A DNA stretch of 64,000 nt from a virus. Lineage: Duplodnaviria; Heunggongvirae; Uroviricota; Caudoviricetes. The DNA is taken from the IMG/VR virus record IMGVR_UViG_2609460125_000009; one strand, written 5' to 3'. Positions within the stretch are counted from its first letter, which is position 1. Every line of letters begins with the position of its first letter. This document shows, one piece after another, positions 10,947 through 27,274 of this stretch. Both the position numbers and the translations under genes were made by a program. Under the pieces are notes generated by a model, which ran no database searches, was not told where the DNA came from, and saw only the letters and a list, made by a program, of their open reading frames with translations.

Positions 10947-12050
10947 ATGAAAAATAGCTTTGACAGAGCACGCGCTGCGGAGAACACCTCAAAAGAGGCG
11001 ATTGAGTATCTCGAAAGAGCATCTCAAATGCAGGCCGTTATGATCTCCCAGGTCAGCAATGACATGAGATTCTCGGACGCATTCATGTTATTCACTCGCT
11101 TATCTCTGCTGATAACAAGACGTCGGCCAGAGATCGCTGTTCATTGTATTTTGATACATGTTTTGCCGCACATTGCCGATGTAAAAGTAAGTGATATTAA
11201 TAGGTTCATGGTGAACCAACTGGTCAACCCACTAATACTGGATGGCAAAATTGTTATGGGTCGCCGCGTTTTCTCTCTGATGAAGCAGTTCCTCAGCTGG
11301 TGCGCCTTCCAGGGGATGATCGACGTGTCACCGTTAAACGATATGTCACTTAACAAAGTTGCCGGTGGCGCAAAGCCCACACCTCGCGAGCGGAAGCTGA
11401 CCGACGCAGAGGTATGGGTGTTCTGGAATATATGGGACTACTTCAATGTGTGTGCTGGTACAAAATGGGCGGCCAGGCTATGTCTTGTATCCGCAAGACG
11501 ACCTGACGAAGTACTGCGGGCTAAAAAAAGTGAGTTCAATCTTAAGCGTGGGGTTTGGAATCAAGGCAAGAGGAACAAATCTGCCCGTGAGCATTCTCTG
11601 CCTTTAAGCTCATTAATGCGCACTTGTATTGAAGAGTTGTTCGAATATGGTAAAGACAGCCAGTGGCTCGTGCCTTCGAATAAAAAAATCGGGAAAGACC
11701 TTCCTATGTCTAAAGTGGCAATAGCCCAGGCATTACGTCGTATTCTGGAACGACCAGAACTGATGGAGCTTGAGCCATTTACACCCCGAGATTTGCGCCG
11801 TACTGCGCGTAGTTACTTCCCAGCATTAGGCATAAGCCAGGAGGTATCACGTAAAATCATGAACCACAGTCTTGAGGGGATAGATCGGGTCTACGACCGG
11901 CACGATTATATGGACGAGATGCGAGACGCCTTAGAAAGTTTCTCGACGTACATCGCATCAATCGTAGAGCAACCGGATTTAGACGAAATTGACCACAAAT
12001 TTAAGGGAGATCGTCTATCAACAGAGCTTATTCGTGTAAATTTTTCATAG
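10947..12050 (+). CDS. tyrosine site-specific recombinase/integrase
   Basis: C-terminal catalytic domain with R ... HSL ... R ... Y pattern (RDLRRTARSY, NHSLEG, VYDRHDY); no clear RBS so start is uncertain. Confidence 0.75.
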   Translation: MKNSFDRARAAENTSKEAIEYLERASQMQAVMISQVSNDMRFSDAFMLFTRLSLLITRRRPEIAVHCILIHVLPHIADVKVSDINRFMVNQLVNPLILDGKIVMGRRVFSLMKQFLSWCAFQGMIDVSPLNDMSLNKVAGGAKPTPRERKLTDAEVWVFWNIWDYFNVCAGTKWAARLCLVSARRPDEVLRAKKSEFNLKRGVWNQGKRNKSAREHSLPLSSLMRTCIEELFEYGKDSQWLVPSNKKIGKDLPMSKVAIAQALRRILERPELMELEPFTPRDLRRTARSYFPALGISQEVSRKIMNHSLEGIDRVYDRHDYMDEMRDALESFSTYIASIVEQPDLDEIDHKFKGDRLSTELIRVNFS

Positions 12051-12431
12051 AGACTTTATGGCCTCAACAACCTTTTGTGATGCGCCTTTCTCTTTACCGA
12101 ATCGCTCGTTATATGCAGCAAGAACCTGTTTTTCGTCCTCGTTAAGAGGAGCAGTGCCTTCTTTGTATAAAAATGCTGCGAGTTCGGGTTGGCGTTCTTC
12201 CAGCACCATCATCATAAGACGACTTGGCTCAATACCCAGTGCCAGCGCCAGCGGACGAACCTTATCGATAGGCAAAGGAATTTTGCCGCTTTTAATTAAA
12301 GAAAGGTTGTTGGCGTTTTTATACCCAATTGTTTTGGCTATCTGGGCCTGGCTCATAGGTGAGGATTCAATCAACCCTGCGATAAAAGCAGCGTAGCGAC
12401 TTTCTATAAATTCAATCTTGTTATCAGACAT
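12045..12431 (-). CDS. XRE-family helix-turn-helix transcriptional regulator
   Basis: HTH SQAQIAKTIGYKNANNLSLIKSGK; convergent with the recombinase gene. Confidence 0.65.
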   Translation of the reverse strand: MSDNKIEFIESRYAAFIAGLIESSPMSQAQIAKTIGYKNANNLSLIKSGKIPLPIDKVRPLALALGIEPSRLMMMVLEERQPELAAFLYKEGTAPLNEDEKQVLAAYNERFGKEKGASQKVVEAIKSL

Positions 12432-12682
12432 GGTTACAACCTTTGCGCGTTCAATTCTCTCTGGTAAGTGCTTACCGATATTACATCAAAGGTTAGGGTT
12501 GTAAAGCTATTATCATTTTTTTCGATAGGCACTTAAAAGACCGGTTAAAGGCCATTGCACGGAGAAAAATTAGCCCAAAATAGGTAAGAAAATCAACTTG
12601 CATATGATATGAATGTATTCAGTATTGATACAAATTTTAGTAGTATTCCTTACCATAGTATAAGTTAGAATGGATTGATTGA

Positions 12683-12895
12683 ATGAACACCACTATTTCC
12701 AGCCTAATCGCTCTTGAGATCGGACACGTACAGAAATTAGCTGATGAGTGTGTAGCTGACATCCTCACCGATCTACCGAATGAGCAGATTCAGGTTGGTG
12801 TGAATGACACAACTGGATTTATATTCGAACTTAACAACAAACGCTTCACGCTTCTCAATACCGGCTCCGGGTCTTTAGCCGTCAGAATCTGTTAA
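12683..12895 (+). CDS. hypothetical protein (70 aa)
   Basis: ORF in track only; weak support. Confidence 0.3.
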   Translation: MNTTISSLIALEIGHVQKLADECVADILTDLPNEQIQVGVNDTTGFIFELNNKRFTLLNTGSGSLAVRIC

Positions 12896-12993
12896 CCCCT
12901 CTTCTCCCTGCGCGAATGGCTTAGTTCCCTGTTCGCGCAGTGCTACATTAAACACACTAGTAAATAATTTGTTTTCATAACAAAGGATTAGCC

Positions 12994-15102
12994 ATGTCTA
13001 AAAAACGTTCCATCAAAGAGGTTCAGGACTTCCGTGACAGTGTAAAACGAGTAGTCGCTCTCCTTTCAGGTAAAAACATCCCTGTTGCAGAACGAGGGGA
13101 CGACGCTTATGTACGCTATAACGATGATGGAGAGCCAATTCTCGTAAACATCCCATCAATCCCGGATAACGCAACACCGGCATTGATGAATGCTGTGCGC
13201 GGATTTCTCGATCATGAGGTTGCTCACATTTTGTTTACCGATATTCGTGTGTCCAACAAAATGAGAGAAAAAGGACGCGTTCCTTCCTGGTCGCTATGGA
13301 ATGCCTTAGAAGACGTGTTCATCGAGCGAAAAATGGGTCAGGTCTTTAACGGAACAAGACGTAATCTGATGGCAACTCAGCGCCTTATAATCGAAAAAGT
13401 CTTTAAACCAAAGGCTTCAGAGGCTATTGCTTATTGTGGCAAAGATCAGCGCGCGCTTTTTCTAAACTTCTTTCTCTGTCCGGTTGTAAGAGCCTGGGAT
13501 GGCCAAGCACCGTTCGTAGATTTCATGGATGAATATTGGCCTGTCATTGAGAAACCAATTTCATTATTAAAAGAACATGGTATCGATGTGGCCGTGCGTA
13601 ACATGTCTTGCACCGAGGATTGTGTAAAGGTGGCTGCGACCATAGCTAAGATCCTCAAAGACACTGAAAGTGAAAGCAAAGGTAAGGAGTCAGCTCCGGG
13701 AAAAACTTCCGATCCTTCAGACGCTGACCAGACGGATGCCTCTGGAGAAAACAATGAAGACAACGAAGATCATGAGACACCCTCAGCGTTAGATAATCAC
13801 AAATCTATCAAATCAGAATCACACAGTAAGCACAAACATGATAATAACGACGGTGATGATTCAGATAATTCTGAATCATCAGAAACAATATTCGATGATA
13901 CAGAAAATGATAAAGAGGTATCAGATTCTGATGCTTCTGATAACGCGGTGTCAGAATCATTTACCGCTGACCACGAAAAAAGAAAAACGACAGAAGACGG
14001 CTCTTCAGATATCCCAACTCCGTCAAAAATGAGTCTGGAAGAGGCTTTAGAGGAGCTGGATAGCATAGAAGATGAAGTCGGAGGCATGACAGAAGATGCT
14101 CTATCCGAAACGATTAAAAGCGAGTTAACAGAAACCTCGAAAAGCGAATACAGGCCATACAATCGCTCATACGACTTCATCGGCTCGATTGATCAGGCAG
14201 AAGCCCATATCAAACGGCTTATTAAAACATTCTCCGATATTGATTTAGGAGGATATCCAATCAGCCGCTATCGCATCGTTCCTGAAGGCAACCAGCTCTT
14301 CGACAAATATATTGAAAAGCATCTTTCGTCAGGTGTTTCGTCGACGCTGGCAAAAGACCTGGAGCGAGCAATAGCAAGCAGAAACAGAGTTCAGTTTATA
14401 CCGGGCCAGCGTCGGGGGCGCATTCATGGTTCTAGTATCTACAGATTAGCAATGAATGATGATCGCGTGTTTCGTAAAAAAGAAGAATCTAAAGCCGTTA
14501 ACGCCTGTGTTCAGCAAGTGATTGATTTATCAGGTTCAATGAGTGGTATAACGATACAATTGGCTCTTGCAAGTGCATATACCATCGCCGATGCCCTTGA
14601 TCGAATAAATGTTCCCAACATTATCACCGGCTTCACTACATTTGGTAGTCATATGGCGGCAGGAGAACTTAAGGCTGTCAAGTATGAGTTCTCTCGCTTT
14701 GAATCTTTAATGCTACCTATCATCAAAAATTGGAATGAAAAGGTAAATTCTCGCGAAGTTCGCTCACGTATGGGGTGCGTAGGCTACACATTCCCACTTC
14801 TTAATAACGTGGATGGTGAAAGCATAGCCAGCCTTGCATCGTTATTTTCCGGTCGCATGGAGGACAGGAAGATCATGCTTGTTCTGAGTGATGGCGCGCC
14901 GTGGGCTGTTGGGAGAGGTTTTGACGCTCATTTGCGTTCGGTTGCGAAGCAAATTGAAACGCAGACTGACATTGATTTGATGGCAATTGGCATCATGACT
15001 GACGCACCGGAGAGATTATACTCAAATCATGCCCTGGTAACGAGCGTTGATAGTCTTGGTTCATCTGTAGTTACTGAACTATCTCGTATCATTTTAAAGT
15101 GA
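12994..15102 (+). CDS. VWA-domain protein, CobT-like
   Basis: C-terminal MIDAS-like DLSGSMSG, long acidic/Ser-rich central linker; paired with the downstream AAA+ ATPase. Confidence 0.65.
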   Translation: MSKKRSIKEVQDFRDSVKRVVALLSGKNIPVAERGDDAYVRYNDDGEPILVNIPSIPDNATPALMNAVRGFLDHEVAHILFTDIRVSNKMREKGRVPSWSLWNALEDVFIERKMGQVFNGTRRNLMATQRLIIEKVFKPKASEAIAYCGKDQRALFLNFFLCPVVRAWDGQAPFVDFMDEYWPVIEKPISLLKEHGIDVAVRNMSCTEDCVKVAATIAKILKDTESESKGKESAPGKTSDPSDADQTDASGENNEDNEDHETPSALDNHKSIKSESHSKHKHDNNDGDDSDNSESSETIFDDTENDKEVSDSDASDNAVSESFTADHEKRKTTEDGSSDIPTPSKMSLEEALEELDSIEDEVGGMTEDALSETIKSELTETSKSEYRPYNRSYDFIGSIDQAEAHIKRLIKTFSDIDLGGYPISRYRIVPEGNQLFDKYIEKHLSSGVSSTLAKDLERAIASRNRVQFIPGQRRGRIHGSSIYRLAMNDDRVFRKKEESKAVNACVQQVIDLSGSMSGITIQLALASAYTIADALDRINVPNIITGFTTFGSHMAAGELKAVKYEFSRFESLMLPIIKNWNEKVNSREVRSRMGCVGYTFPLLNNVDGESIASLASLFSGRMEDRKIMLVLSDGAPWAVGRGFDAHLRSVAKQIETQTDIDLMAIGIMTDAPERLYSNHALVTSVDSLGSSVVTELSRIILK

Positions 15103-15197
15103 ACAAAACAGCCTTAACGATAAGTAACCACTTACGATAGATAATGATATATTTATATAAGAAGTTGAACGCTCATTAGAAAACAAAGGAAAAACGC

Positions 15198-16433
15198 ATG
15201 ACTACTACTGCACTGCAAAATGAAAACAATCCTTCTGATTACCTTGTTTGCAAGTGGTGCGGAAAATCATTTCACTATTTTAAGTCCCATGTTGCCAATG
15301 GTAATTGCGAGGGCATTCCTGAGTCAGTAAAAGATGCCGATCCTGACACCGTACTGAAAATGTACACAACACAGTTTCCAGATGAGCCAACGCTATCGAA
15401 AAAGGCACTTGATGCAATTCAAGCTAAACGTGCCGAGCAAAAAAGCGAAATGGCCAAATCATCTGGCGTGACCAGTAGCCCAGGCTACACAGGCACAGTT
15501 GAGTACAAGACAGATCTGGTCGCAGCTCACGAACTGCTAAATGTAACGGTGAAAGAACTCGGAACAAAACGTGGGACGCCGCTCATGGTTAGCGTCAACG
15601 TCAATACGCCGTTTCCAGAGTTCGTTCCAGAAGTGAAGAAGGGATACGTATATGGCGACTTCGAACTGATCAAAGACATTTTCATGATGCTTGAACTTGG
15701 CATACCTGGCTATTTGTGGGGTCATGCAGGAACAGGCAAATCGTCATTGCCTACACAACTATGTGCTTTGCTCAATCGTCCGTTGATCCGTGCCCAACAT
15801 ACAGCATCAATGGAAGAGGCACATGTTACGGGGCAAATTCTGGCGCGTGATGGCTCTACGTATTTCGAGCCTGGCTTGCTTGCGCTCGCAATGAAGCATG
15901 GCTGGGTTTACCTCGCGGATGAATACGACTTTGCGTTTCCACAAATTCTTGGCGTGTATCAGCCAGTGCTGGAAGGTGAAGCGTTAGTCATCAAAGAGGC
16001 GACTCCAGAATGGCGTCGCATTACTCCGCATGAACGGTTTGCTTTCATTGGCACTGGCAACACGAACGGATCTGGTGATGAAACCGGCTTGTACCAGGGT
16101 ACAAACATCCAGAACGCCGCGAACTTTTCGCGTTTTGGCATCGTTTCGAATGTGAAATACATGAGCAAAGAGGCAGAGATCAACATGTTGATAAATGCCG
16201 GTATCGTGGATGAATACGCAGAAAAGATGGTTAAGTTTGCCGGTATCGTTCGCGATGGATACGAAGAACACCTTATCAGTCAGCCAATTGGCCCTCGTGA
16301 ACTTTTGTTGTCGGCCAAGATTGGAATGATGCGAGGCGACTTTGTGACAGGTATTGAGCGTTCTTTCATTAACAAACTCCCTTCAGCTTCTGCACAAGCG
16401 GCTCGTGAAGTTGTTCAAAAAATATTTGGTTGA
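15198..16433 (+). CDS. AAA+ ATPase, CobS/MoxR-like
   Basis: Walker A GHAGTGKSSL, Walker B VYLADEYD, sensor region; conserved AAAGGAAAAACGCATG start context. Confidence 0.7.
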   Translation: MTTTALQNENNPSDYLVCKWCGKSFHYFKSHVANGNCEGIPESVKDADPDTVLKMYTTQFPDEPTLSKKALDAIQAKRAEQKSEMAKSSGVTSSPGYTGTVEYKTDLVAAHELLNVTVKELGTKRGTPLMVSVNVNTPFPEFVPEVKKGYVYGDFELIKDIFMMLELGIPGYLWGHAGTGKSSLPTQLCALLNRPLIRAQHTASMEEAHVTGQILARDGSTYFEPGLLALAMKHGWVYLADEYDFAFPQILGVYQPVLEGEALVIKEATPEWRRITPHERFAFIGTGNTNGSGDETGLYQGTNIQNAANFSRFGIVSNVKYMSKEAEINMLINAGIVDEYAEKMVKFAGIVRDGYEEHLISQPIGPRELLLSAKIGMMRGDFVTGIERSFINKLPSASAQAAREVVQKIFG

Positions 16434-16613
16434 TCGTGCGTAAAGGATGTTTCGGCTCTCTTATCGCTGCTTCTGAAACTGGTAAGGCTTGTCTGGTGTG
16501 TCCAGACAAGCCCGATTGTCACCAATCAGCAAAAGAAGTTGCGATTTCGATGCATGGGAAGTTCGTAGGCTTCCCAAATGACAAAATCAAAAAAACCAGA
16601 AAGGTAAAAACAC

Positions 16614-19600
16614 ATGAAGGCACTGATGGTTCGAACTGACTTCTCACTTGGGGAGTCGGCTTTAAAAGCAGAAAACGCGGTGAAGATTGCCAGAGAAGCT
16701 GGCTACACCGCTGTAATTTCAGCAGATAGCATGAATATTGCGAGCGTTATTCCACTACAACGTGCCGCTGGTGACGACATGGCGGTTATTTGTGGTGTGA
16801 AACTAAACATCGTTGATGATCCCACATACGAGCACCGGGCTAAACTTGCTAAAGAGTCTAAGGGATGTATGGAATCATTGGAGCGAGGACGTAACTACTC
16901 GTTTACCGCTCTAATTAAAAATGAGAAAGGATATCGCGACATCTGCGAACTAATGACGGCGGCCAACACACGAGAACAGTTCTACTTTGTACCGCGTCTC
17001 TCGCTCGAACAGTTGGTTTCTACATATGCCAAAGGCAACATCATCCTGCTTACTTCCGACATCGGTAGCGTGTTCCAACGCAACGATTTTGCAAAAATCA
17101 TAAGCACACTGATTACAGCGGGTGGAAAAGACAACTTCTATAGTGTGGTTTATCCGCACCCTACCCCATTCTACGACCAGATTAACGTCCGGGCGATGAA
17201 AGTCGCCAGCGCATTGAAAATAGAGCCAGTGGCGTTCTATCCCGCTTATTACGAATCGATCGACGATGCAGACATTAAAGACATTGCGCACATGGTTACG
17301 AACAACATAAAAATCGACCAGCCGCATCGTCTGCGTATCCCCCACCAGCGAGATAACGCCATCAATGGTCGTCGCCATCTCCTTGAGGCGCTTAAAGCCT
17401 TCTCCGTTCGCATGGATGTGCCGGTAACAGCTGCAATGGCCTCAACAACGCAGGACTCCATTATCGATGCCTGCACATGGCGCTGGCATGAATTGCCACC
17501 AGCACTGCCCAAGATGGCAGACGACGAACCTGCAACGCTGATGAAACTGGCTGTTGCAGGGCTGCGTAAACGTCTTACCACAAAAGAGTTTGGATACACA
17601 CCACCTGCTTCTGAGAACAGGGTTTATGTTGAGCGGCTAAAGTACGAAATGGACACGCTGACTCGCCTGGGATTCTGTGGTTACTTCCTGATGGTACGCG
17701 ATCTGATGAATCACAGCCGTGAAACTGGCATTCCTGTCGGGCCTGGTCGTGGTTCCTCTGCCGGTTCTCTGGTGGCGTGGTGCATAGGCATAACCAACGT
17801 CGACCCAATCCGTCACGGTCTTCTGTTTGAGCGTTTCATCAACCCTGAGCGTCTCGACTTGCCGGATGCTGACTTGGACTTCAGCCAGGCACGTCGCCAT
17901 GAGGTGATCGAGTATCTGAATGAACGCTACGGCGAAGATTACGTTGCAGGCATTCCGAACTTCACCTATCTGGGCGCGGCATCTGCGCTGCGTGACACTG
18001 CACGTATTTACGGTGTCGATGCTGCGGATATGGCGGTATCCAAAGAGTTCAAGAATATGGAGGACGACAGCCTGTCTCTGGAAGAGCTGCGCGAGCAACT
18101 GGCCAGCCTGGACAAATACGCCACGAAAAACCCGGAAGCGTTCAAAGCGGCGTGTAAGCTGCAAAGCCTGATGCGTGGTTTTGGTCGTCACGCTGCGGGG
18201 ATGATCGTCGCTGGCGTTCCATTAGTAGAGCGCACGCCCGTCGAGCTGCGTGGCAATGCTCGATGTATTGCGTTCGATAAACGTTACTGCGAGGCGATGG
18301 GGCTGATTAAGTTGGACGTTCTCGGTCTGGCAACACTCGATCTTCTGGATAGCGCGAAACGCTACATCAAAGAGAGTACCGGTGAAGACATCAATCTCGA
18401 CGCTATCCCACTGGACGATCGCAAGGTTCTGGATGGGTTCGCTGCAGGGTACACGCAGGGCGTATTCCAGCTGGAGTCCGGCCCCATGCGTAAGCTGCTT
18501 AAAGATCTGGGCGGTGGCATCGAGCCAATGAGTTTCAAAACCGTTGTCGCAACTACCGCCCTCTTCCGACCGGGACCGATTCAATCCGGCATGTTGGATG
18601 ACTATGTTTCCGTTGCGAAAGGATTTATGACGCCTACATCACTACATCCTGTCTTGGATGAACTGACCTCTGAAACAAATGGAGTGATTCTCTATCAGGA
18701 ACAAACGATGAACGCAACAAGGCTTCTTGCTGGTTTCACAATGGCCGAGGCGGATGGTGTGCGTTCAGCAATCGGTAAGAAGAACATGGAAAAGATGAGG
18801 AGCATGGGTGAGAAATTTGTCATTCAGGCTCAAGCTGGGTGGATCGACGTAGAGCTTGAAAATGGCGCAATACAACGGATTCATCGCGCAGAACATTTTA
18901 AATGCGAGGACGGTACTCTGAGGACAGTTGAAGAGGCGTTGGAGCATGGAGTGAAGCTGCCAATGCCAGTTGTGCGCGTTACAACGTCACATCCAGGTCT
19001 GTCTGAGACGAAGGCAAAAGAGATATGGACTGCATTTGAGAAAAACGGAGCCTATCAGTTCAATAAATCACACTCCGTTGCTTATTCTTTAATCAGTTAT
19101 CAGTCTATGTGGCTAAAGACGCACTACCCTGCTGAGTTCTTCGCAGCTGCGCTCACCATTCTGGGCGAGGATAAGCATCAGGGGCTGGTGAAGGATGCGC
19201 TGACCTATGGCATTCGCGTATTGCCACCAGACGTTAATGTGTCATCTAACCGAATTGAGATCCGCACACTCGAAGACGGCAGTCAGGCACTGTATGCGCC
19301 ATTCTCTGCTGTGAAAGGCTGTTCTGAAAATGGTTGTCAGGCAATTATGCGTGCGCGTGAGAAAGTTGGTGGCAAATTCGAGTCAGTGGCACAATTCGAT
19401 GAAGCGGTCGAGAAGCGTGCATGTAACAGTCGTGTACGCGAGTCGCTTCATAAAGTAGGGGCTTTTGCGTCAATTGAGCCAGGCAGTCTGCCAGCAACTG
19501 ATCCTGAACGACTGCGCGACCAGGCTGAGCTGATGGGCAATCTCATCATTGACGCTGTTAAAGCATCACGTCCGTTCGAAATGAATCCTAAGCGTTCTGC

Positions 19601-20132
19601 CGAAATCAACGTACTCATGACACGTATGGCGGCTGAAATGGGCTTGGGTGAGGAGTTGATACGCCCGACTATTGGTATTAAACCCAAAATCATGATCATT
19701 CTGGACAATGCGAACGGCAATGACGCTCGTACCGGCTACTTCATGGAGAACGGATACGACGACTTTAAGGCAAAACTACTGACAGTTGGAGATCTGCGCA
19801 TGGGCGATCTTTATGTCACGGGTGTTTGTAAGAAGGTTAAGGACAAAGAGAAAGACTATACCAAAGACGAGATAGGCCAGTTCACAGACTTTATGCGGGA
19901 AGAAATTAATCTTGTACGACCAACCTACATTTTGACGTGTGGTAGTCGTTCAACCGCACTATTTAACAATAAGAGTAAACCATCAGATCTGATTGGTCGT
20001 AAGGAGTACTTCCCAGAGCTTGATGCAACCGTCTTCTACGGATTTAACCCGAATATCCTGTACTTCCGACCGGAAGAAGGAGAGCGACTGGAGGCCATTC
20101 TGGCTGATATCGCGGAGACAATAAATAAGTAA
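16614..20132 (+). CDS. DNA polymerase III alpha subunit homolog (DnaE-like) with a divergent C-terminal domain
   Basis: 1172 aa; N-terminal PHP domain, polymerase core motif GPGRGSSAGSLVAWCIGIT; conserved AAAAACACATG start context. Confidence 0.9.
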   Translation: MKALMVRTDFSLGESALKAENAVKIAREAGYTAVISADSMNIASVIPLQRAAGDDMAVICGVKLNIVDDPTYEHRAKLAKESKGCMESLERGRNYSFTALIKNEKGYRDICELMTAANTREQFYFVPRLSLEQLVSTYAKGNIILLTSDIGSVFQRNDFAKIISTLITAGGKDNFYSVVYPHPTPFYDQINVRAMKVASALKIEPVAFYPAYYESIDDADIKDIAHMVTNNIKIDQPHRLRIPHQRDNAINGRRHLLEALKAFSVRMDVPVTAAMASTTQDSIIDACTWRWHELPPALPKMADDEPATLMKLAVAGLRKRLTTKEFGYTPPASENRVYVERLKYEMDTLTRLGFCGYFLMVRDLMNHSRETGIPVGPGRGSSAGSLVAWCIGITNVDPIRHGLLFERFINPERLDLPDADLDFSQARRHEVIEYLNERYGEDYVAGIPNFTYLGAASALRDTARIYGVDAADMAVSKEFKNMEDDSLSLEELREQLASLDKYATKNPEAFKAACKLQSLMRGFGRHAAGMIVAGVPLVERTPVELRGNARCIAFDKRYCEAMGLIKLDVLGLATLDLLDSAKRYIKESTGEDINLDAIPLDDRKVLDGFAAGYTQGVFQLESGPMRKLLKDLGGGIEPMSFKTVVATTALFRPGPIQSGMLDDYVSVAKGFMTPTSLHPVLDELTSETNGVILYQEQTMNATRLLAGFTMAEADGVRSAIGKKNMEKMRSMGEKFVIQAQAGWIDVELENGAIQRIHRAEHFKCEDGTLRTVEEALEHGVKLPMPVVRVTTSHPGLSETKAKEIWTAFEKNGAYQFNKSHSVAYSLISYQSMWLKTHYPAEFFAAALTILGEDKHQGLVKDALTYGIRVLPPDVNVSSNRIEIRTLEDGSQALYAPFSAVKGCSENGCQAIMRAREKVGGKFESVAQFDEAVEKRACNSRVRESLHKVGAFASIEPGSLPATDPERLRDQAELMGNLIIDAVKASRPFEMNPKRSAEINVLMTRMAAEMGLGEELIRPTIGIKPKIMIILDNANGNDARTGYFMENGYDDFKAKLLTVGDLRMGDLYVTGVCKKVKDKEKDYTKDEIGQFTDFMREEINLVRPTYILTCGSRSTALFNNKSKPSDLIGRKEYFPELDATVFYGFNPNILYFRPEEGERLEAILADIAETINK

Positions 20133-20138
20133 TAAAGA

Positions 20139-20162
20139 AAACCCGCCTGTTGGCGGGTTTAT
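20139..20162. terminator. bidirectional rho-independent terminator
   Basis: aaaacccgcc-tgtt-ggcgggttt between convergent genes. Confidence 0.65.
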
Positions 20163-20435
20163 AAAGAATTATGGCGCTTGTTGAGGAAGTCACTCCTCTT
20201 ACGCACTTTGTTTTGCCATGCCGGCAGTTAGCTTCTGCCTTTGACTATTCATGCGGCAACCCCGCATTTCGCCACAATGGGCAATTCACTTTTATGGAAT
20301 AAACTGGCCGTTGTGTCGATTTAATTAGCATGGCCTTACCATGCTAATTTATTCAACTTGTACAATCCTACAAATCTATCCACTCAGGCTTACACCGTCT
20401 TCGTTATTGTAGAAATGAGGATCATCAGCGTTGAA

Positions 20436-20651
20436 TCAGCTTAGAGCAACGACATTTGCTGCTGCTGGGCCTTTAGCCCCATTCTCGATAGAGAATTCGA
20501 CCTGCTGGCCTTCTTCCAAAGTGCGGAAATTATTACTCTGAATTGCCGAAAAATGTACAAAAACATCTTTACTGCCATCAGCAGGAGAAATAAAGCCAAA
20601 GCCTTTATCAGAGTTAAACCATTTTACTAAACCAGTCATTTTATTAGACAT
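20436..20651 (-). CDS. cold-shock protein, CspA family
   Basis: [21 protein letters not shown] ... VFVHFSAI with RNP1/RNP2-like motifs; start moved to the internal Met matching the CspA N-terminus; ~300-nt leader upstream. Confidence 0.85.
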
Positions 20652-24934: not shown

Positions 24935-27274
24935 ATGGCAAAAGGAAAATCCGCACTGGCACTTGCTCTGAAAAAGAAAATCGGTAGCAACGACGAAATT
25001 CAGAAAGTAACTCATTGGATTGACACAGGCTTTCCTCCGTTAAACAAAGCTATTTCCGGTCGTTACGATGGCGGTTTCCCATGTGGTCGTATCGTAGAAG
25101 TATTCGGGCCACCAAGCGCGGGGAAATGTGTTACCGCAGACACCATGCTGCTGACGGAGCGTGGAATGGTAACAGTGAAAGAGTTGTTTGAGATTGAAGG
25201 GTACAAAGCGACATGCACTACTCGCGATGTAGAGCATAACGTTGGACTCATCAATGAAAATGGCGTGATAGAGAAGACCTCACACCTGACATGGAACAAC
25301 CGTCGCAAATTCAAGCGTATTAAGCTGGCATCAGGCGGTTATATCGAGGCTACGTTCCGTCACCCAATCCGTGTGGTTGACGACTTAGGTAATGTCGTCT
25401 GGCGACATGCTGAAAAAATCAGTGTAGGCGACACGATTCCTTCAATGGTTGGCACACATCAATTCGGCGATCAGCACCTGGATGCCAATATCGCAAAACT
25501 GATGGGCTATTTAATTGCTGACGGATACGTGGCCTCTGAAAATTCAGTGAATTTTTCTAACACAGATCCTTTCATCAAGGATGAGTACTACCGCCTCATT
25601 TCGCTGGTATCAGACAAGATGCCAGTTACGAGAAAACATAACGGCTCGGAAGACCATGTGCTGTTTAGCAAAGAGGTGCGTTCGCTGCTTTTTAAAGAAT
25701 ATGGTCTGGAGTATGAGAAAGCTGCTGGCAAGCAGGTTCCGTTGAGTGTGCGTCGCGCCAATAGCGAGGCTCAAATTGCATTCCTTCGCGGCTACTTTGA
25801 GCTGGAATGCCACGTCAATGATGGTCGCTGCATTGAGGTTGTGAGCGCGAGTGGGCTGCTGCTACAGCAAATTCGCCTCATGCTCCTGAATCTGGGGATT
25901 ACGTCAACTATCTCTGAAAAACACGTCGCGGGTTATGAAAATACATATTACCGGCTGTCATTCAGTGGCTCTAATTACGACCTTTTTCTGTCAACGATTG
26001 GTTTCGAATCTCCGGCACGTTTATCAGTGGCAACCAAACGGGACATTGGTTTTGACCGCACTTACTCAGGCTATGTTCCGCACATCAGCGGCTTAGTGAA
26101 ATCACTCTACGAGTCGCTCACCAAGACCACCCGTGAAGACTACGCTCTGGTAGACCACGTTATTGGCCGCGGCGATCGTGTCGGAATAGACAAACTGCGA
26201 GAAATCTATGTCTCCTTCATTGGCAGAAAGAATCGTTTTAACGAGCATCTGTTTGCACAACTGGCAGCGGTAATTGGCTCTAACTTGTTCTACGACGAAG
26301 TCGTGGCTATTGAGGAAGGTGAAGCACCAACGTTCGACGTAGCGATGCCGGAAACACACTCTTTCTGGTCTAACGGGATTATCAGCCACAACACATTCCT
26401 TGCAACAGCAGCGATGATCTCCGCTCAAAAACAAGATGGTCTGGCGGTATTCCTCGATCATGAAAACAGTTTTGACGTTGGCCTGGCTGTAGCCAATGGC
26501 CTGAACGCAGATGAGGATGACGGTCAGTGGGTATACAAGCAGCCAGATACCTTCGAAGACTCTGTAGAGTTGATCGGCACAATACTTAAATTGGTTCGTG
26601 ATGAAGAGCTTATCCCCGAATCAGCACCTATCTGTATCGTGGCTGACTCTCTTGCGTCTATGGTTCCGAACTCCAAAGCCGAGAAGTTCGAAAAGATGGC
26701 TGAAGGCACAGCCAAAGACAAAGATCAGCTAAACATGAACGACAATACGGCACTGGCTCGTGCGACGAGTGCGAACTTCCCTACTCTGGCTTTGTGGGCA
26801 CGCAAATACAACGCCTGCATCATCTTCTTGAATCAGGTTCGCACAAAAATCGGTGTAATGTTTGGCGACCCTACTACGTCGCCAGGTGGAGATTCACCGA
26901 AGTTCTACGCTTCTGTACGTATCCGTCTTGGTGCATCGGTGATGAAGGATGGTAAAGAGAAGATCGGCCAGGACGTAGGCGCAGAATGCATCAAAAACAA
27001 AGTTGCACCACCGTATGGCAAATGCACCTGGAAATTCTACTTCGATCCTACTCGTGGCCTCGACGTTATCGAGTCGCTCGTCGAGTACATGCTGGAAGAA
27101 GGATACCTGCCAAAGAACGCCAGCGGTCGAGTAGAAATTGGTGACAAGAAATACACCAAATCACAGATCGTCGAGATGTATCGGGAGAAGCCACTAGCTG
27201 AAATCATTGCGGCTTTACAGGCAATCGACGACCGGAGATCAAAAGACAATCCCACCGAGTCAGTAGAAGAGTAA
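24935..27274 (+). CDS. RecA-family recombinase interrupted by an intein
   Basis: Extein: GPPSAGK|TFLATAAM P-loop and FLNQVRTKIGVMFGDPTTSPGGDSPKFYASVR, closely matching the RecA core; 422-aa insertion between K64 and T. Confidence 0.85.
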   Translation: MAKGKSALALALKKKIGSNDEIQKVTHWIDTGFPPLNKAISGRYDGGFPCGRIVEVFGPPSAGKCVTADTMLLTERGMVTVKELFEIEGYKATCTTRDVEHNVGLINENGVIEKTSHLTWNNRRKFKRIKLASGGYIEATFRHPIRVVDDLGNVVWRHAEKISVGDTIPSMVGTHQFGDQHLDANIAKLMGYLIADGYVASENSVNFSNTDPFIKDEYYRLISLVSDKMPVTRKHNGSEDHVLFSKEVRSLLFKEYGLEYEKAAGKQVPLSVRRANSEAQIAFLRGYFELECHVNDGRCIEVVSASGLLLQQIRLMLLNLGITSTISEKHVAGYENTYYRLSFSGSNYDLFLSTIGFESPARLSVATKRDIGFDRTYSGYVPHISGLVKSLYESLTKTTREDYALVDHVIGRGDRVGIDKLREIYVSFIGRKNRFNEHLFAQLAAVIGSNLFYDEVVAIEEGEAPTFDVAMPETHSFWSNGIISHNTFLATAAMISAQKQDGLAVFLDHENSFDVGLAVANGLNADEDDGQWVYKQPDTFEDSVELIGTILKLVRDEELIPESAPICIVADSLASMVPNSKAEKFEKMAEGTAKDKDQLNMNDNTALARATSANFPTLALWARKYNACIIFLNQVRTKIGVMFGDPTTSPGGDSPKFYASVRIRLGASVMKDGKEKIGQDVGAECIKNKVAPPYGKCTWKFYFDPTRGLDVIESLVEYMLEEGYLPKNASGRVEIGDKKYTKSQIVEMYREKPLAEIIAALQAIDDRRSKDNPTESVEE
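25127..26392 (+). mobile_element. intein with LAGLIDADG homing-endonuclease domain inside the RecA P-loop
   Basis: Begins with Cys directly after GPPSAGK, ends ...SHN followed by Thr; internal LAGLIDADG-type motifs MGYLIADGYV and FLRGYFELECHV. Confidence 0.75.

What the first reader, a model, noticed from the sequence alone, without database searches (positions are those of the whole stretch)
12994..16433. CobT-like VWA protein plus CobS/MoxR-like AAA+ ATPase pair in the replication module
A 702-aa protein with a MIDAS-type VWA domain and a long acidic Ser/Asp-rich linker is followed by a MoxR-like AAA+ ATPase. This chaperone-like pair is not a replication enzyme and its role on mobile elements is unclear (metal insertion, complex remodelling or defence evasion).
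Basis: partly seen in the sequence, partly recalled or inferred. Interest (0 to 1): 0.4.

Follow-up and report, generated by a model that had tools for sequence, protein, structure and literature searches.

The report
Phage CobS/CobT-like motor pair, not chelatase
Two adjacent genes of an E. coli phage-plasmid encode a relative of the ATP-driven motor and adaptor of the vitamin-B12 cobalt chelatase; here they carry an extra zinc finger and an intact protease-like metal site, sit in front of the phage DNA polymerase gene, and lack the chelatase's third subunit, so they almost certainly do something other than make B12.

Summary
ORF 12994-15102 (702 aa) is CobT-like: N-domain, about 200-aa acidic linker, VWA domain with a complete MIDAS. 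ORF 15198-16433 (411 aa) is a CobS-class AAA+ ATPase with every catalytic residue intact. The window is an SSU5-type phage-plasmid, 99.3% identical to E. coli phage Cyrano/pLF82.

The pair is already catalogued as viral "cobST" or "porphyrin biosynthesis", and its function is unknown. New details found here:
- The ATPase has an N-terminal Ros/MucR-type zinc finger that authentic CobS lacks.
- The CobT-like N-domain keeps an intact HExxH...E zincin signature (99-100% of 128 diverse relatives). Authentic Brucella CobT has S-M-x-x-R at those positions.
- At only about 35-45% identity, relatives keep the order repressor | small ORF, cobT-like, cobS-like, (sigma factor), Cys-rich orfX, DnaE-UDG polymerase. 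In ICP2-like and T4-like cyanophages the pair also lies among replication genes.
- No CobN was found in the window, and E. coli has no de novo B12 pathway. The element's own RNR is class Ia.

Best reading: an early-lytic, ATP-driven remodelling (possibly proteolytic) machine acting on a non-CobN client linked to replication. The client is unknown. Interest is moderate.

The parts
12045..12431 (-). HTH repressor gene transcribed divergently from the operon (context)
   Evidence: Pfam HTH_19 weak hit. It equals CYRAN_45 'putative repressor', which is expressed in the lysogenic state.
12683..12895 (+). 70-aa first ORF of the operon (phrog_2627, unknown function)
   Evidence: phrog_2627 E=8.8e-41. 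A small ORF occupies the same position in distant relatives.
12994..15102 (+). CobT-like adaptor protein, 702 aa
   Evidence: Pfam CobT_C 5.6e-82 and CobT 4.7e-26; phrog_1576 2.6e-299; TIGR01651 only 69.6 bits against a cut-off of 759.
12994..13683 (+). N-terminal M48-like zincin domain (aa 1-230)
13213..13227 (+). HExxH motif (H74-E75-V-A-H78)
   Evidence: H74 100%, E75 99% and H78 99% conserved in 128 representatives of 33-45% identity. Brucella CobT has S81-M82-A-L-R85 at these positions.
13309..13326 (+). E106-D107...E111, candidate third metal ligand and acidic cluster
   Evidence: E106 100%, D107 99% and E111 100% conserved.
13684..14313 (+). acidic Asp/Glu/Ser-rich disordered linker (about aa 231-440)
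   Evidence: Composition. Length and sequence are hypervariable among close relatives. Authentic CobT has a disordered linker of about 90 aa.
14380..14499 (+). segment homologous to the CobT 'shaft' (aa 463-502)
   Evidence: Aligns to Brucella Q373-R413, the segment that inserts into the CobS ring pore. G471, G475 and F493 are at least 97% conserved.
14500..15102 (+). VWA domain with complete MIDAS (D511, S513, S515, N605, D633)
15198..16433 (+). CobS-like AAA+ ATPase, 411 aa
   Evidence: AAA_5 2.1e-15; phrog_249 2e-106; PDB CobS 9ujv 1.8e-25 over aa 141-411; TIGR01650 only 84.8 bits against a cut-off of 558.55.
15231..15434 (+). N-terminal Ros/MucR-type zinc-finger domain (aa 12-79; ligands C18, C21, H31, C37)
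15720..15743 (+). Walker A (G175-HAGTGK-S182)
   Evidence: Invariant in alignment A1. Maps to Brucella G71-S78.
15915..15929 (+). Walker B (A240-DEYD244)
   Evidence: Invariant. D241/E242 correspond to Brucella D141/E142. Sensor-1 N288, Arg finger R312 and sensor-2 R367 are also conserved.
16430..16639 (+). orf69: truncated homologue of the Cys-rich phrog_3616 'orfX' that precedes dnaE in relatives; overlaps the cobS stop and the dnaE start
   Evidence: phrog_6337 2e-45 and phrog_3616 4e-5. phmmer hits to 7 of 7 orfX proteins from distant loci.
16614..20132 (+). DnaE-type polymerase with a C-terminal UDG family-4-like domain (last gene of the operon)
   Evidence: Pfam DNA_pol3_alpha 3.6e-73, PHP, finger and HHH_6 domains; TIGR00758 5.3e-7.
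20139..20160 (.). GC-rich hairpin 7 nt after the dnaE stop; likely end of the operon
   Evidence: The T-run criterion is met on the - strand only; on the + strand the stem is followed by TTTAT.

Best explanation
The two genes encode a phage-type version of the CobS-CobT motor/adaptor pair, not a working cobaltochelatase.

Shown:
- The 411-aa protein is a CobS-class AAA+ ATPase with all catalytic residues intact, plus an N-terminal Ros/MucR-type zinc finger.
- The 702-aa protein has an M48-like N-domain with an intact, strongly conserved HExxH...E signature, a long acidic linker, a segment homologous to the CobT shaft, and a VWA domain with a full MIDAS.
- The polar residues through which authentic CobT_N docks on the CobS small subdomain are conserved.
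- The genes lie in one same-strand block with the element's DnaE polymerase, next to the divergent repressor gene. This order is kept in very distant relatives.

Inferred by homology with the Brucella CobST structures: six ATPase subunits form a ring, the adaptor's shaft sits in the pore, and its N-domain docks on the ring.

Inferred mechanism: after induction, the MIDAS face and N-domain hold a protein client. In the chelatase that client would be CobN, which E. coli does not have. ATP hydrolysis then remodels the client, and the zincin site may cleave it, as phage DNA replication begins. The zinc finger tethers the motor to DNA or to a partner protein. The client itself is unknown.
For: - Family and residue mapping.
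- Structural logic of authentic CobST: preprint 10.64898/2026.07.21.739949.
- HExxH/E conservation in 128 diverse relatives, and its absence from authentic CobT.
- Zincin-like fold. The N-zincin+VWA architecture recurs across viruses.
- Zinc finger.
- Not the chelatase: scores are far below the NCBIfam equivalog cut-offs. No ORF of 1000 aa or more other than DnaE exists in the window. E. coli needs about 30 heterologous genes, including cobNST, to make B12. The element's RNR is class Ia NrdAB.
- Replication linkage: synteny with DnaE-UDG, gp32, exonuclease and RecA at 35-45% identity. In ICP2-like phage the pair is next to helicase and Pol I. In a T4-like cyanophage it lies between gp46/47 and gp45/44/62.
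- Early-lytic timing: the repressor is expressed in lysogeny, while CYRAN_46-49 are not on the list of lysogeny-expressed genes; the phage is ciprofloxacin-inducible.
- Operon structure.
- Cyanophage cobS behaves as a single-copy core gene of unknown function.
Against: - There is no experimental evidence for any activity, client or phenotype.
- Synteny with replication genes may reflect only shared ancestry of a module, or shared early timing, rather than a physical or functional link.
- The HExxH is lost in Pseudomonas phage phiK7B1 (DSEISK), so proteolysis cannot be universally required.
- The zinc finger is degenerate in one subclade (C-D-Y-H, 8 of 112) and not detected in cyanophage or ICP2 CobS.
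- The finger's net charge is neutral, so DNA binding is not indicated.
- Shaft-contact residues of authentic CobS are not conserved (S102->E, R147->F), and the C-terminal helix alpha10 is missing. The geometry of the complex may therefore differ.
- The absence of CYRAN_46-49 from the lysogeny-expressed list is indirect evidence.
Confidence: 0.5

Rival explanations
1. Genuine auxiliary metabolic genes: viral CobS and CobT plug into a host CobN to boost cobalamin synthesis. This is the standing hypothesis in the literature.
For: Clear homology to CobS and CobT, with conserved ATPase site, shaft, MIDAS and CobS-CobT contact residues. The hypothesis is stated in PMC8651126 and PMC3037004. Some hosts of related phages (Rhizobium, Pseudomonas, haloarchaea, cyanobacteria) may have CobN; that is from my own knowledge and was not tested here.
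Against: E. coli has no de novo corrin pathway or CobN and needs about 30 heterologous genes. No CobN-sized ORF is in the window. Scores are 7- to 11-fold below the equivalog cut-offs. The zinc finger and the intact HExxH are both foreign to authentic CobS/CobT. The element's own RNR is B12-independent class Ia. The genes are not among those expressed in the lysogen.
Confidence: 0.05
2. Virion-assembly chaperone and processing protease: a MoxR-vWA pair with a peptidase domain that matures structural proteins. This was proposed for T4-like jumbo phages, by analogy with the MoxR-vWA pair needed for tail development of Acidianus two-tailed virus.
For: Iyer et al. 2021 (PMC7824862) describe the same architecture and make this proposal. 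The intact HExxH fits a processing protease.
Against: In every lineage examined the pair lies among replication and recombination genes, not in the structural module. In this element it is in the repressor-proximal operon with dnaE. The zinc finger is not explained.
Confidence: 0.12
3. Host-takeover or counter-defence machine: an ATP-driven protease or unfoldase that captures a host protein (a defence factor, nucleoid protein or host replisome component) through the MIDAS and destroys or inactivates it, with no direct role in the phage replisome.
For: Early-operon position. Intact zincin site plus AAA+ motor. The hypervariable acidic linker may indicate diversifying interaction or DNA mimicry. 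A weak profile hit to anti-CRISPR AcrIIA26, E=0.0023.
Against: No match to known defence or counter-defence families; PADLOC gave only a spurious DrmE hit at 0.0037. The pair is a near-universal single-copy core gene in myo-cyanophages and highly conserved, unlike typical fast-turnover anti-defence genes. The AcrIIA26 hit is borderline.
Confidence: 0.15
4. Metal-insertion chaperone for a phage metalloenzyme, following the usual MoxR-VWA logic (NorQ/NorD, CoxD/CoxE, chelatases). Candidate clients are the di-iron site of phage NrdB or the PHP-domain metals of the DnaE polymerase.
For: The closest characterised relatives all drive metal insertion. The element encodes NrdAB and a PHP-containing DnaE. 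The conserved H/E cluster could hold a metal for delivery rather than catalyse hydrolysis.
Against: ICP2-like and T4-like phages carry the pair with different polymerases. No specific link to nrd genes is seen in the neighbourhoods. HExxH with a conserved Glu is the classic catalytic arrangement rather than a metal-transfer site.
Confidence: 0.13

Closest known systems
CobS-CobT of aerobic cobaltochelatase CobNST (Brucella melitensis; PDB 9ujv, 9uka, 21vu, 21vt)
   Same: AAA+ core with identical Walker A/B, sensor-1, Arg finger and sensor-2. Adaptor with an M48-like N-domain, acidic disordered linker, shaft segment and VWA with the same five MIDAS residues. Conserved polar CobS_S-CobT_N contacts: E404/Q407/K408 with R69/D73/N124. 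The two genes are adjacent.
   Different: No CobN partner. Scores are far below the equivalog cut-offs. The ATPase has an extra N-terminal Ros/MucR-type finger and lacks the C-terminal helix alpha10. The adaptor keeps HExxH where Brucella has S-M-x-x-R. The linker is about twice as long. Shaft-contact residues differ. The genes lie in a phage replication operon.
Viral cobST clusters / phage 'MoxR-vWA with N-terminal metallopeptidase' pairs (cyanophage CobS plus 'peptidase', ICP2 ORF41/42, haloarchaeal tailed viruses, T4-like jumbo phages)
   Same: Same two-gene unit and the same HExxH + VWA-MIDAS adaptor architecture. In the phages examined here the pair also lies among replication genes.
   Different: Cyanophage and ICP2 ATPases have other N-terminal extensions without the CxxC finger. 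The cyanophage adaptor is too divergent to hit Pfam CobT or CobT_C. Polymerase types differ.
Other MoxR-class AAA+ / VWA pairs (NorQ/NorD, CbbQ/CbbO, RavA/ViaA, ATV p618/p892)
   Same: An AAA_5/CbbQ_C-type ATPase encoded next to a MIDAS-VWA adaptor that recruits a specific client.
   Different: Those adaptors generally lack a zincin domain, and their ATPases lack a zinc finger. Their clients are respiratory or carbon-fixation enzymes or virion tails.
Ros/MucR prokaryotic Cys2His2 zinc-finger regulators (Ros87, PDB 2jsp)
   Different: Here the finger is a domain fused to an AAA+ ATPase, not a stand-alone DNA-binding regulator. The window variant is C-C-H-C with an insertion. The basic DNA-contact tail of Ros is not evident. 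Similarity is below Pfam's threshold.
FtsH-type AAA+ zinc metalloproteases (functional analogy only)
   Same: Combines an AAA+ hexameric motor with an HExxH zincin site.
   Different: The motor and the peptidase are on two separate polypeptides, from unrelated AAA+ and zincin clades. There is no membrane anchor. A proteolytic function has not been demonstrated.

Membership tests
Cobaltochelatase subunit CobS (NCBIfam TIGR01650 equivalog) | Whole-protein score at or above the curated equivalog cut-off | tested here: not met
   84.8 bits against a cut-off of 558.55.
Cobaltochelatase subunit CobS (NCBIfam TIGR01650 equivalog) | AAA+ catalytic residues (Walker A/B, sensor-1, Arg finger, sensor-2) | tested here: met
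   G175/K181/S182, D241/E242, N288, R312 and R367 align to Brucella G71/K77/S78, D141/E142, N186, R210 and R271. They are invariant in A1.
Cobaltochelatase subunit CobS (NCBIfam TIGR01650 equivalog) | About 330-aa single-module architecture ending in helix alpha10, which binds CobT_N | tested here: not met
   The protein is 411 aa with an added zinc-finger domain. The alignment ends at Brucella residue 315 of 328, so the alpha10 patch A322-V326 is absent.
Cobaltochelatase CobNST holoenzyme | A CobN subunit available in the element or the host | tested here: not met
   DnaE is the only ORF of 1000 aa or more in the 64-kb window, and none is annotated in the Cyrano regions inspected. At host level this rests on the literature: E. 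coli needs heterologous cobNST. No direct protein search of E. coli genomes was possible.
Cobaltochelatase subunit CobT (NCBIfam TIGR01651 equivalog) | Whole-protein score at or above the curated cut-off, covering the N-domain | tested here: not met
   69.6 bits against a cut-off of 759.05. The match covers only aa 299-697, not the N-domain. The N-domain profile does not retrieve 9uka_G at E<=10.
Cobaltochelatase subunit CobT (NCBIfam TIGR01651 equivalog) | VWA domain with MIDAS D-x-S-x-S...N...D, preceded by the shaft segment | tested here: met
   D511, S513, S515, N605 and D633 correspond to Brucella D422, S424, S426, N518 and D546. The shaft aa 463-502 aligns to Q373-R413.
Cobaltochelatase subunit CobT (NCBIfam TIGR01651 equivalog) | M48C-like N-domain without catalytic HExxH (pseudo-peptidase), as in Brucella CobT | tested here: not met
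   The fold is shared, but the window has H74-E75-x-x-H78 where Brucella has S81-M82-x-x-R85.
MoxR-class AAA+ / VWA chaperone pair | AAA_5-type ATPase encoded adjacent to a MIDAS-containing VWA protein | tested here: met
   AAA_5 2.1e-15; CbbQ_C in 11 of 16 relatives; PDB CbbQ and NorQ hits. The adjacent VWA-MIDAS protein lies 95 nt upstream.
Zincin (M48-like) metallopeptidase | HExxH plus a downstream Glu ligand, conserved across the family | tested here: met
   H74, E75, H78, E106 and E111 are 99-100% conserved in 128 representatives. The motif is present in Rhizobium, ICP2-like and cyanophage homologues and lost in phiK7B1.
Zincin (M48-like) metallopeptidase | Zincin fold | tested here: inconclusive
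Zincin (M48-like) metallopeptidase | Zinc binding and peptidase activity | not testable with these tools
   Requires biochemistry.
Ros/MucR-type prokaryotic zinc finger | C-x2-C-x9-H-x3-5-H ligand spacing | tested here: met
   70 of 112 relatives are C-C-H-H. The window and 25 others are C-C-H-C after a short insertion. 8 are degenerate C-D-Y-H.
Ros/MucR-type prokaryotic zinc finger | Significant profile and fold similarity to Ros/MucR | tested here: inconclusive
Ros/MucR-type prokaryotic zinc finger | Sequence-specific or AT-rich DNA binding | not testable with these tools
   The net charge of the domain is about 0, which is uninformative.

The most novel reading that the evidence does not exclude
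Viral 'CobST' is not a B12 gene at all. It is a two-component, ATP-dependent metalloprotease or unfoldase built from a CobS-type ring and a zincin-VWA adaptor, and in the DnaE-phage lineage it is targeted by a Ros/MucR-type finger. It removes or processes a DNA-associated protein to license phage genome replication. On this reading, the cellular cobaltochelatase adaptor CobT, whose HExxH has decayed to S-M-x-x-R, would be a domesticated, catalytically dead derivative of such a protease-adaptor.
Probability: 0.2. Interest if true: 0.75.

Novelty: new variant of a known kind. Interest (0 to 1): 0.48.

Why it matters
Viral cobS/cobT are counted in many virome studies as auxiliary metabolic genes for vitamin-B12 synthesis, and cobS is a near-universal core gene of marine myo-cyanophages. 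Yet no function has ever been shown.

This E. coli phage-plasmid offers a clean test case:
- The host has no CobN and no corrin pathway.
- The element's own RNR does not need B12.
- The pair is still strictly conserved, co-transcribed with the polymerase, and carries domains foreign to the chelatase (an intact zincin site and a Ros/MucR-type finger).

If the pair proves to be a replication-linked remodelling or proteolytic machine, a widespread annotation would need correcting and a new accessory factor of phage replication would be defined. The system is genetically tractable: Cyrano/pLF82 and SSU5 are inducible, and the proposed point mutants are obvious.

Tried and rejected
- **Related loci in viral contigs:** a scan with the CobS alignment returned only close SSU5-type relatives. 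Deep synteny had to come from the look-up of encoding contigs instead.
- **Helix-turn-helix in cyanophage CobS:** I suspected one in the N-terminal extension. Pfam gave no hit even at E<=1, so the idea was dropped.
- **PADLOC defence library:** only a spurious DrmE hit (E 0.0037) in the acidic linker region.
- **Promoter scan of 11900-20600:** fewer sigma-70-like sites than the shuffled expectation (8 against 12.2) and no convincing + strand promoter call. The operon promoter is therefore not located.
- **Charge analysis of the finger domain:** meant to argue for or against DNA binding, but uninformative.
- **N-domain profile hit to anti-CRISPR AcrIIA26:** E=0.0023. Borderline and not followed further.
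- **Literature search for a MucR-finger/CobS fusion:** nothing found. The library is incomplete, so this is not proof of novelty.
- **Window orf69 as a remnant of the sigma-70-like gene seen in relatives:** rejected. It matches the Cys-rich orfX (phrog_3616), not the sigma-like proteins.


Full report
**1. What is there**

The window carries two same-strand ORFs exactly as described: 12994-15102 (702 aa) and 15198-16433 (411 aa).

- The first hits Pfam CobT_C (the CobT VWA domain, E=5.6e-82), Pfam CobT (4.7e-26) and full-length phrog_1576.
- The second hits AAA_5 (2.1e-15) and phrog_249 'porphyrin biosynthesis' (2e-106).
- Against solved structures the best matches are the recently deposited Brucella cobaltochelatase subunits: CobS (9ujv, 1.8e-25, aa 141-411) and CobT (9uka_G, 3.3e-16, VWA half only).

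The DNA is 99.3% identical to Escherichia phage Cyrano (= pLF82), an SSU5-type phage-plasmid. It matches 454 PLSDB plasmids of Escherichia, Enterobacter, Yersinia, Salmonella, Citrobacter and others. Helicase, primase and ligase lie upstream. A DnaE-type polymerase, gp32-like SSB, exonuclease and RecA lie downstream. The observation and the 'replication module' setting are confirmed.

**2. It is a known gene pair with an unknown function**

A cobST two-gene cluster has been reported in tailed viruses of eight host orders. The proposal there is that viral CobST hijacks host CobN, and the authors note that cyanophage cobT is usually mis-annotated as a peptidase (PMC8651126). ICP2 of Vibrio cholerae carries the pair too (PMC3037004).

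Iyer et al. independently described a phage MoxR AAA+/vWA pair in which the vWA protein has an N-terminal metallopeptidase domain. They proposed a virion-assembly role (PMC7824862). A 2023 study states that it is unknown whether cyanophage cobS does what the host gene does, and shows that it behaves as a single-copy core gene (PMC9983427).

Public records of this very element name the genes inconsistently. Cyrano even calls them 'dimethylbenzimidazole phosphoribosyltransferase' and 'cobalamin synthetase', a confusion with the unrelated Salmonella CobT/CobS.

**3. Membership in the chelatase family fails on several defining features**

- NCBIfam's equivalog models score 84.8 bits (cut-off 558.55) for CobS and 69.6 bits (cut-off 759.05) for CobT. 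The CobT match does not cover the N-domain.
- The window has no ORF of 1000 aa or more other than DnaE, so no CobN.
- E. coli needs roughly 30 heterologous genes, including cobN, cobS and cobT, to make B12 (PMC6249242).
- The element's own ribonucleotide reductase is class Ia NrdA/NrdB, alongside ThyX and DHFR. The usual 'B12 for class II RNR' argument therefore does not apply.
- In LF82 the neighbouring repressor (CYRAN_45) is among the genes expressed in the plasmid state. CYRAN_46-49 are not on that list, and the phage is ciprofloxacin-inducible (PMC9928086). That is the opposite of what a lysogen-benefiting metabolic gene would show.

**4. What the pair shares with authentic CobST**

A July 2026 preprint (10.64898/2026.07.21.739949) gives the assembly of Brucella CobS, CobT and CobN:
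- CobS forms a hexameric ring.
- CobT_N, an M48C-peptidase-like fold, docks on the CobS small subdomain.
- A CobT 'shaft' (Q373-R413) inserts into the ring pore.
- The VWA MIDAS (D422, S424, S426, N518, D546) and CobT_N together hold CobN.

I mapped these residues through the printed HMMER/hhalign alignments.

The window ATPase keeps Walker A (G175, K181, S182), Walker B (D241, E242), sensor-1 (N288), the Arg finger (R312) and sensor-2 (R367). All are invariant among 16 diverse relatives.

The window adaptor keeps all five MIDAS residues (D511, S513, S515, N605, D633; 99-100% in 128 relatives) and a shaft-equivalent segment (aa 463-502).

The polar contacts between CobS_S (E308, Q311, R312) and CobT_N (R76, D80, N130) are preserved as E404, Q407, K408 and R69, D73, N124.

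So the two phage proteins very probably form the same kind of motor/adaptor complex. This is inferred, not shown.

Some features differ:
- Shaft-contact residues are not conserved (S102->E206, R147->F247, D110 deleted).
- The C-terminal helix alpha10 of CobS is absent.
- The acidic linker is about twice as long (about 200 aa; family median 210 aa, 35% Asp/Glu) and hypervariable even between close relatives.

**5. Two features foreign to the chelatase**

(a) The ATPase has an N-terminal extension of about 80 aa that is conserved in relatives of only 43-47% identity. It contains C-x2-C-x9-H-x4-H followed by 'Y..FPDAP.LS'.
- A 36-sequence profile of this domain finds Ros87 (PDB 2jsp), the prototype prokaryotic Cys2His2 finger, as its top hit among 177,635 PDB sequences. 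The E-value is 5e-4 and the alignment is in register over the ligands.
- Pfam ROS_MUCR gives sub-threshold hits in 6 of 16 members.
- Of 112 relatives, 70 have C-C-H-H, 26 including this window have C-C-H-C, and 8 have a degenerate C-D-Y-H.
- Among cultured phages the finger-bearing form is limited to about 52 records: SSU5-like, Klebsiella, Pseudomonas Nickievirus and Rhizobium phages. Cyanophage and ICP2 CobS align only from aa 115-142 onward and have other N-terminal extensions.
- I found no paper describing this fusion, but the library is incomplete.

(b) The adaptor's N-domain has an intact zincin signature.
- In 128 cluster representatives sharing only 33-45% identity, D73, H74, E75, H78, E106, D107 and E111 are 99-100% conserved.
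- I recovered the real sequence of the authentic CobT N-domain from PDB (21vu_H/9uka_G) and aligned it by hhalign (E=3.7e-4, probability 36%). 'RGLGDSMALR' lies opposite 'RGFLDHEVAH', so authentic CobT has S, M and R where the phage type has H, E and H. E112, E117, G126 and N130 are retained in the authentic protein.
- The same N-domain+VWA architecture recurs in siphoviruses, podoviruses, haloarchaeal tailed viruses and actinophages.
- The HExxH is present in the Rhizobium phage, ICP2-like and cyanophage homologues. It is lost in Pseudomonas phage phiK7B1 (DSEISK). Catalysis, if it occurs, is therefore not indispensable everywhere.

**6. Genomic logic**

In the window the order is: repressor (-) | 250-bp divergent region | orf70, cobT-like, cobS-like, orf69, dnaE. 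The gaps are 98 and 95 nt, followed by overlaps of 4 and 26 nt. No + strand terminator is predicted, and a GC-rich hairpin lies 7 nt after dnaE.

The same order holds at 35-45% ATPase identity in:
- metagenomic elements (L082-L086);
- an integrated element in Ectothiorhodospira;
- a 118-kb Methylobacterium plasmid, where the adaptor gene is split in two;
- Pseudomonas phage phiK7B1;
- Rhizobium phage RHph_N2_6.

In each case the order is small ORF, cobT-like, cobS-like, often a sigma-70-like gene, a 167-189-aa Cys-rich protein (phrog_3616), then a DnaE-UDG fusion polymerase, followed by gp32, a 5'-3' exonuclease and RecA. The window's orf69 is a truncated copy of that Cys-rich protein.

Outside the DnaE lineage the pair still sits among replication genes. 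In an ICP2-like podovirus it is upstream of helicase and Pol I. In T4-like cyanophage P-RSM4 it lies between gp46/47 and gp45/44/62.

This favours a role tied to the replication phase over a late virion-assembly role. Shared ancestry or shared timing could also produce the pattern.

**7. Most likely mechanism and its limits**

I commit, at about 0.5 confidence, to an early-lytic, ATP-driven motor/adaptor. It uses the CobST architecture to act on a client other than CobN. The MIDAS and N-domain capture the client, the ring remodels it, the zincin site possibly cleaves it, and the finger tethers the motor to DNA or to a partner.

The client, any proteolytic activity and any DNA binding are all unproven.

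The rivals and my estimates:
- true chelatase with a host CobN (about 0.05 in this host);
- virion-assembly chaperone/protease (about 0.12);
- host-takeover or counter-defence protease (about 0.15);
- metal-insertion chaperone for phage NrdB or the DnaE PHP domain (about 0.13).

No defence-family match was found.

**8. Verdict**

The gene pair is already catalogued, so the finding is not new as such.

Relative to the characterised CobST system it is a distinct variant: added Ros/MucR-type finger, intact HExxH, no CobN, and a polymerase-linked operon.

Its value is as a tractable E. coli system for settling what viral 'cobST' genes, widely counted as B12 auxiliary metabolic genes, actually do. 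Interest is moderate (0.48).

Noticed in passing
window 16614-20132 (aa 1053-1168 of the product): The DnaE-type polymerase carries a C-terminal family-4 uracil-DNA-glycosylase-like domain (TIGR00758 5.3e-7). The same DnaE-UDG fusion is present in most of the distant relatives examined; no UDG hit was recorded for L086 (Pfam UDG).
   Followed up: partly
window 16430-16639: A 69-aa ORF (TTG start) overlaps the cobS stop by 4 nt and the dnaE start by 26 nt. It is a truncated homologue of a 167-189-aa phrog_3616 protein with an N-terminal 'GCFGS...C..C.....C' motif. That protein sits immediately before dnaE in 7 of 7 distant loci. Its function is unknown.
   Followed up: partly
L082 9182-9856; L088 8209-8844; L092 5497-6123; L093 9254-9877: Many relatives encode a sigma-70-like protein between cobS-like and orfX. 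Three of the four pass Pfam's Sigma70_r2 threshold (up to 38 bits); L092 is assigned by BLASTP similarity only. The window lacks this gene. Some stand-alone CobT-like N-domain proteins also carry a weak Sigma70_r4 hit (P0398, P0343).
   Followed up: partly
L001 14395-17834 (Cyrano OV696614 CYRAN_47/48); L087 7022-8248 (phiK7B1_059): There are public annotation errors. Cyrano labels the pair 'dimethylbenzimidazole phosphoribosyltransferase' and 'cobalamin synthetase', a name clash with Salmonella CobT/CobS. The phiK7B1 ATPase is annotated from an internal ATG, which cuts off its zinc finger; the full ORF starts at a GTG.
   Followed up: yes
window 12994-13689 (profile A4, positions 96-186): The CobT-like N-domain profile's best PDB hit is the anti-CRISPR protein AcrIIA26 (9zq6_B), E=0.0023, over the 'lnivEDtfiE' region, rather than authentic CobT. 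The hit is borderline and may be chance.
   Followed up: no
window 24935-27274: The RecA-like ORF is 779 aa, about twice the usual length. The RecA gene of a distant relative (L093) has intein-splicing hits, so an intein or extra domain may be present here too.
   Followed up: no
L092 1064-3492 (Methylobacterium sp. AMS5 plasmid CP006993): The CobT-like gene is split into an N-domain ORF (346 aa) and a VWA ORF (462 aa), with three small ORFs before the ATPase gene. The literature reports the same kind of split for haloarchaeal virus HHTV-2.
   Followed up: no
window 12600-16700, compared with PLSDB: Besides E. coli, 89 Enterobacter, 63 Yersinia, 41 Salmonella and 23 Citrobacter plasmid records hold this region; 258 of the 454 matching records are at 60-80% identity. 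The pair is therefore a backbone gene of a large family of enterobacterial phage-plasmids.
   Followed up: no
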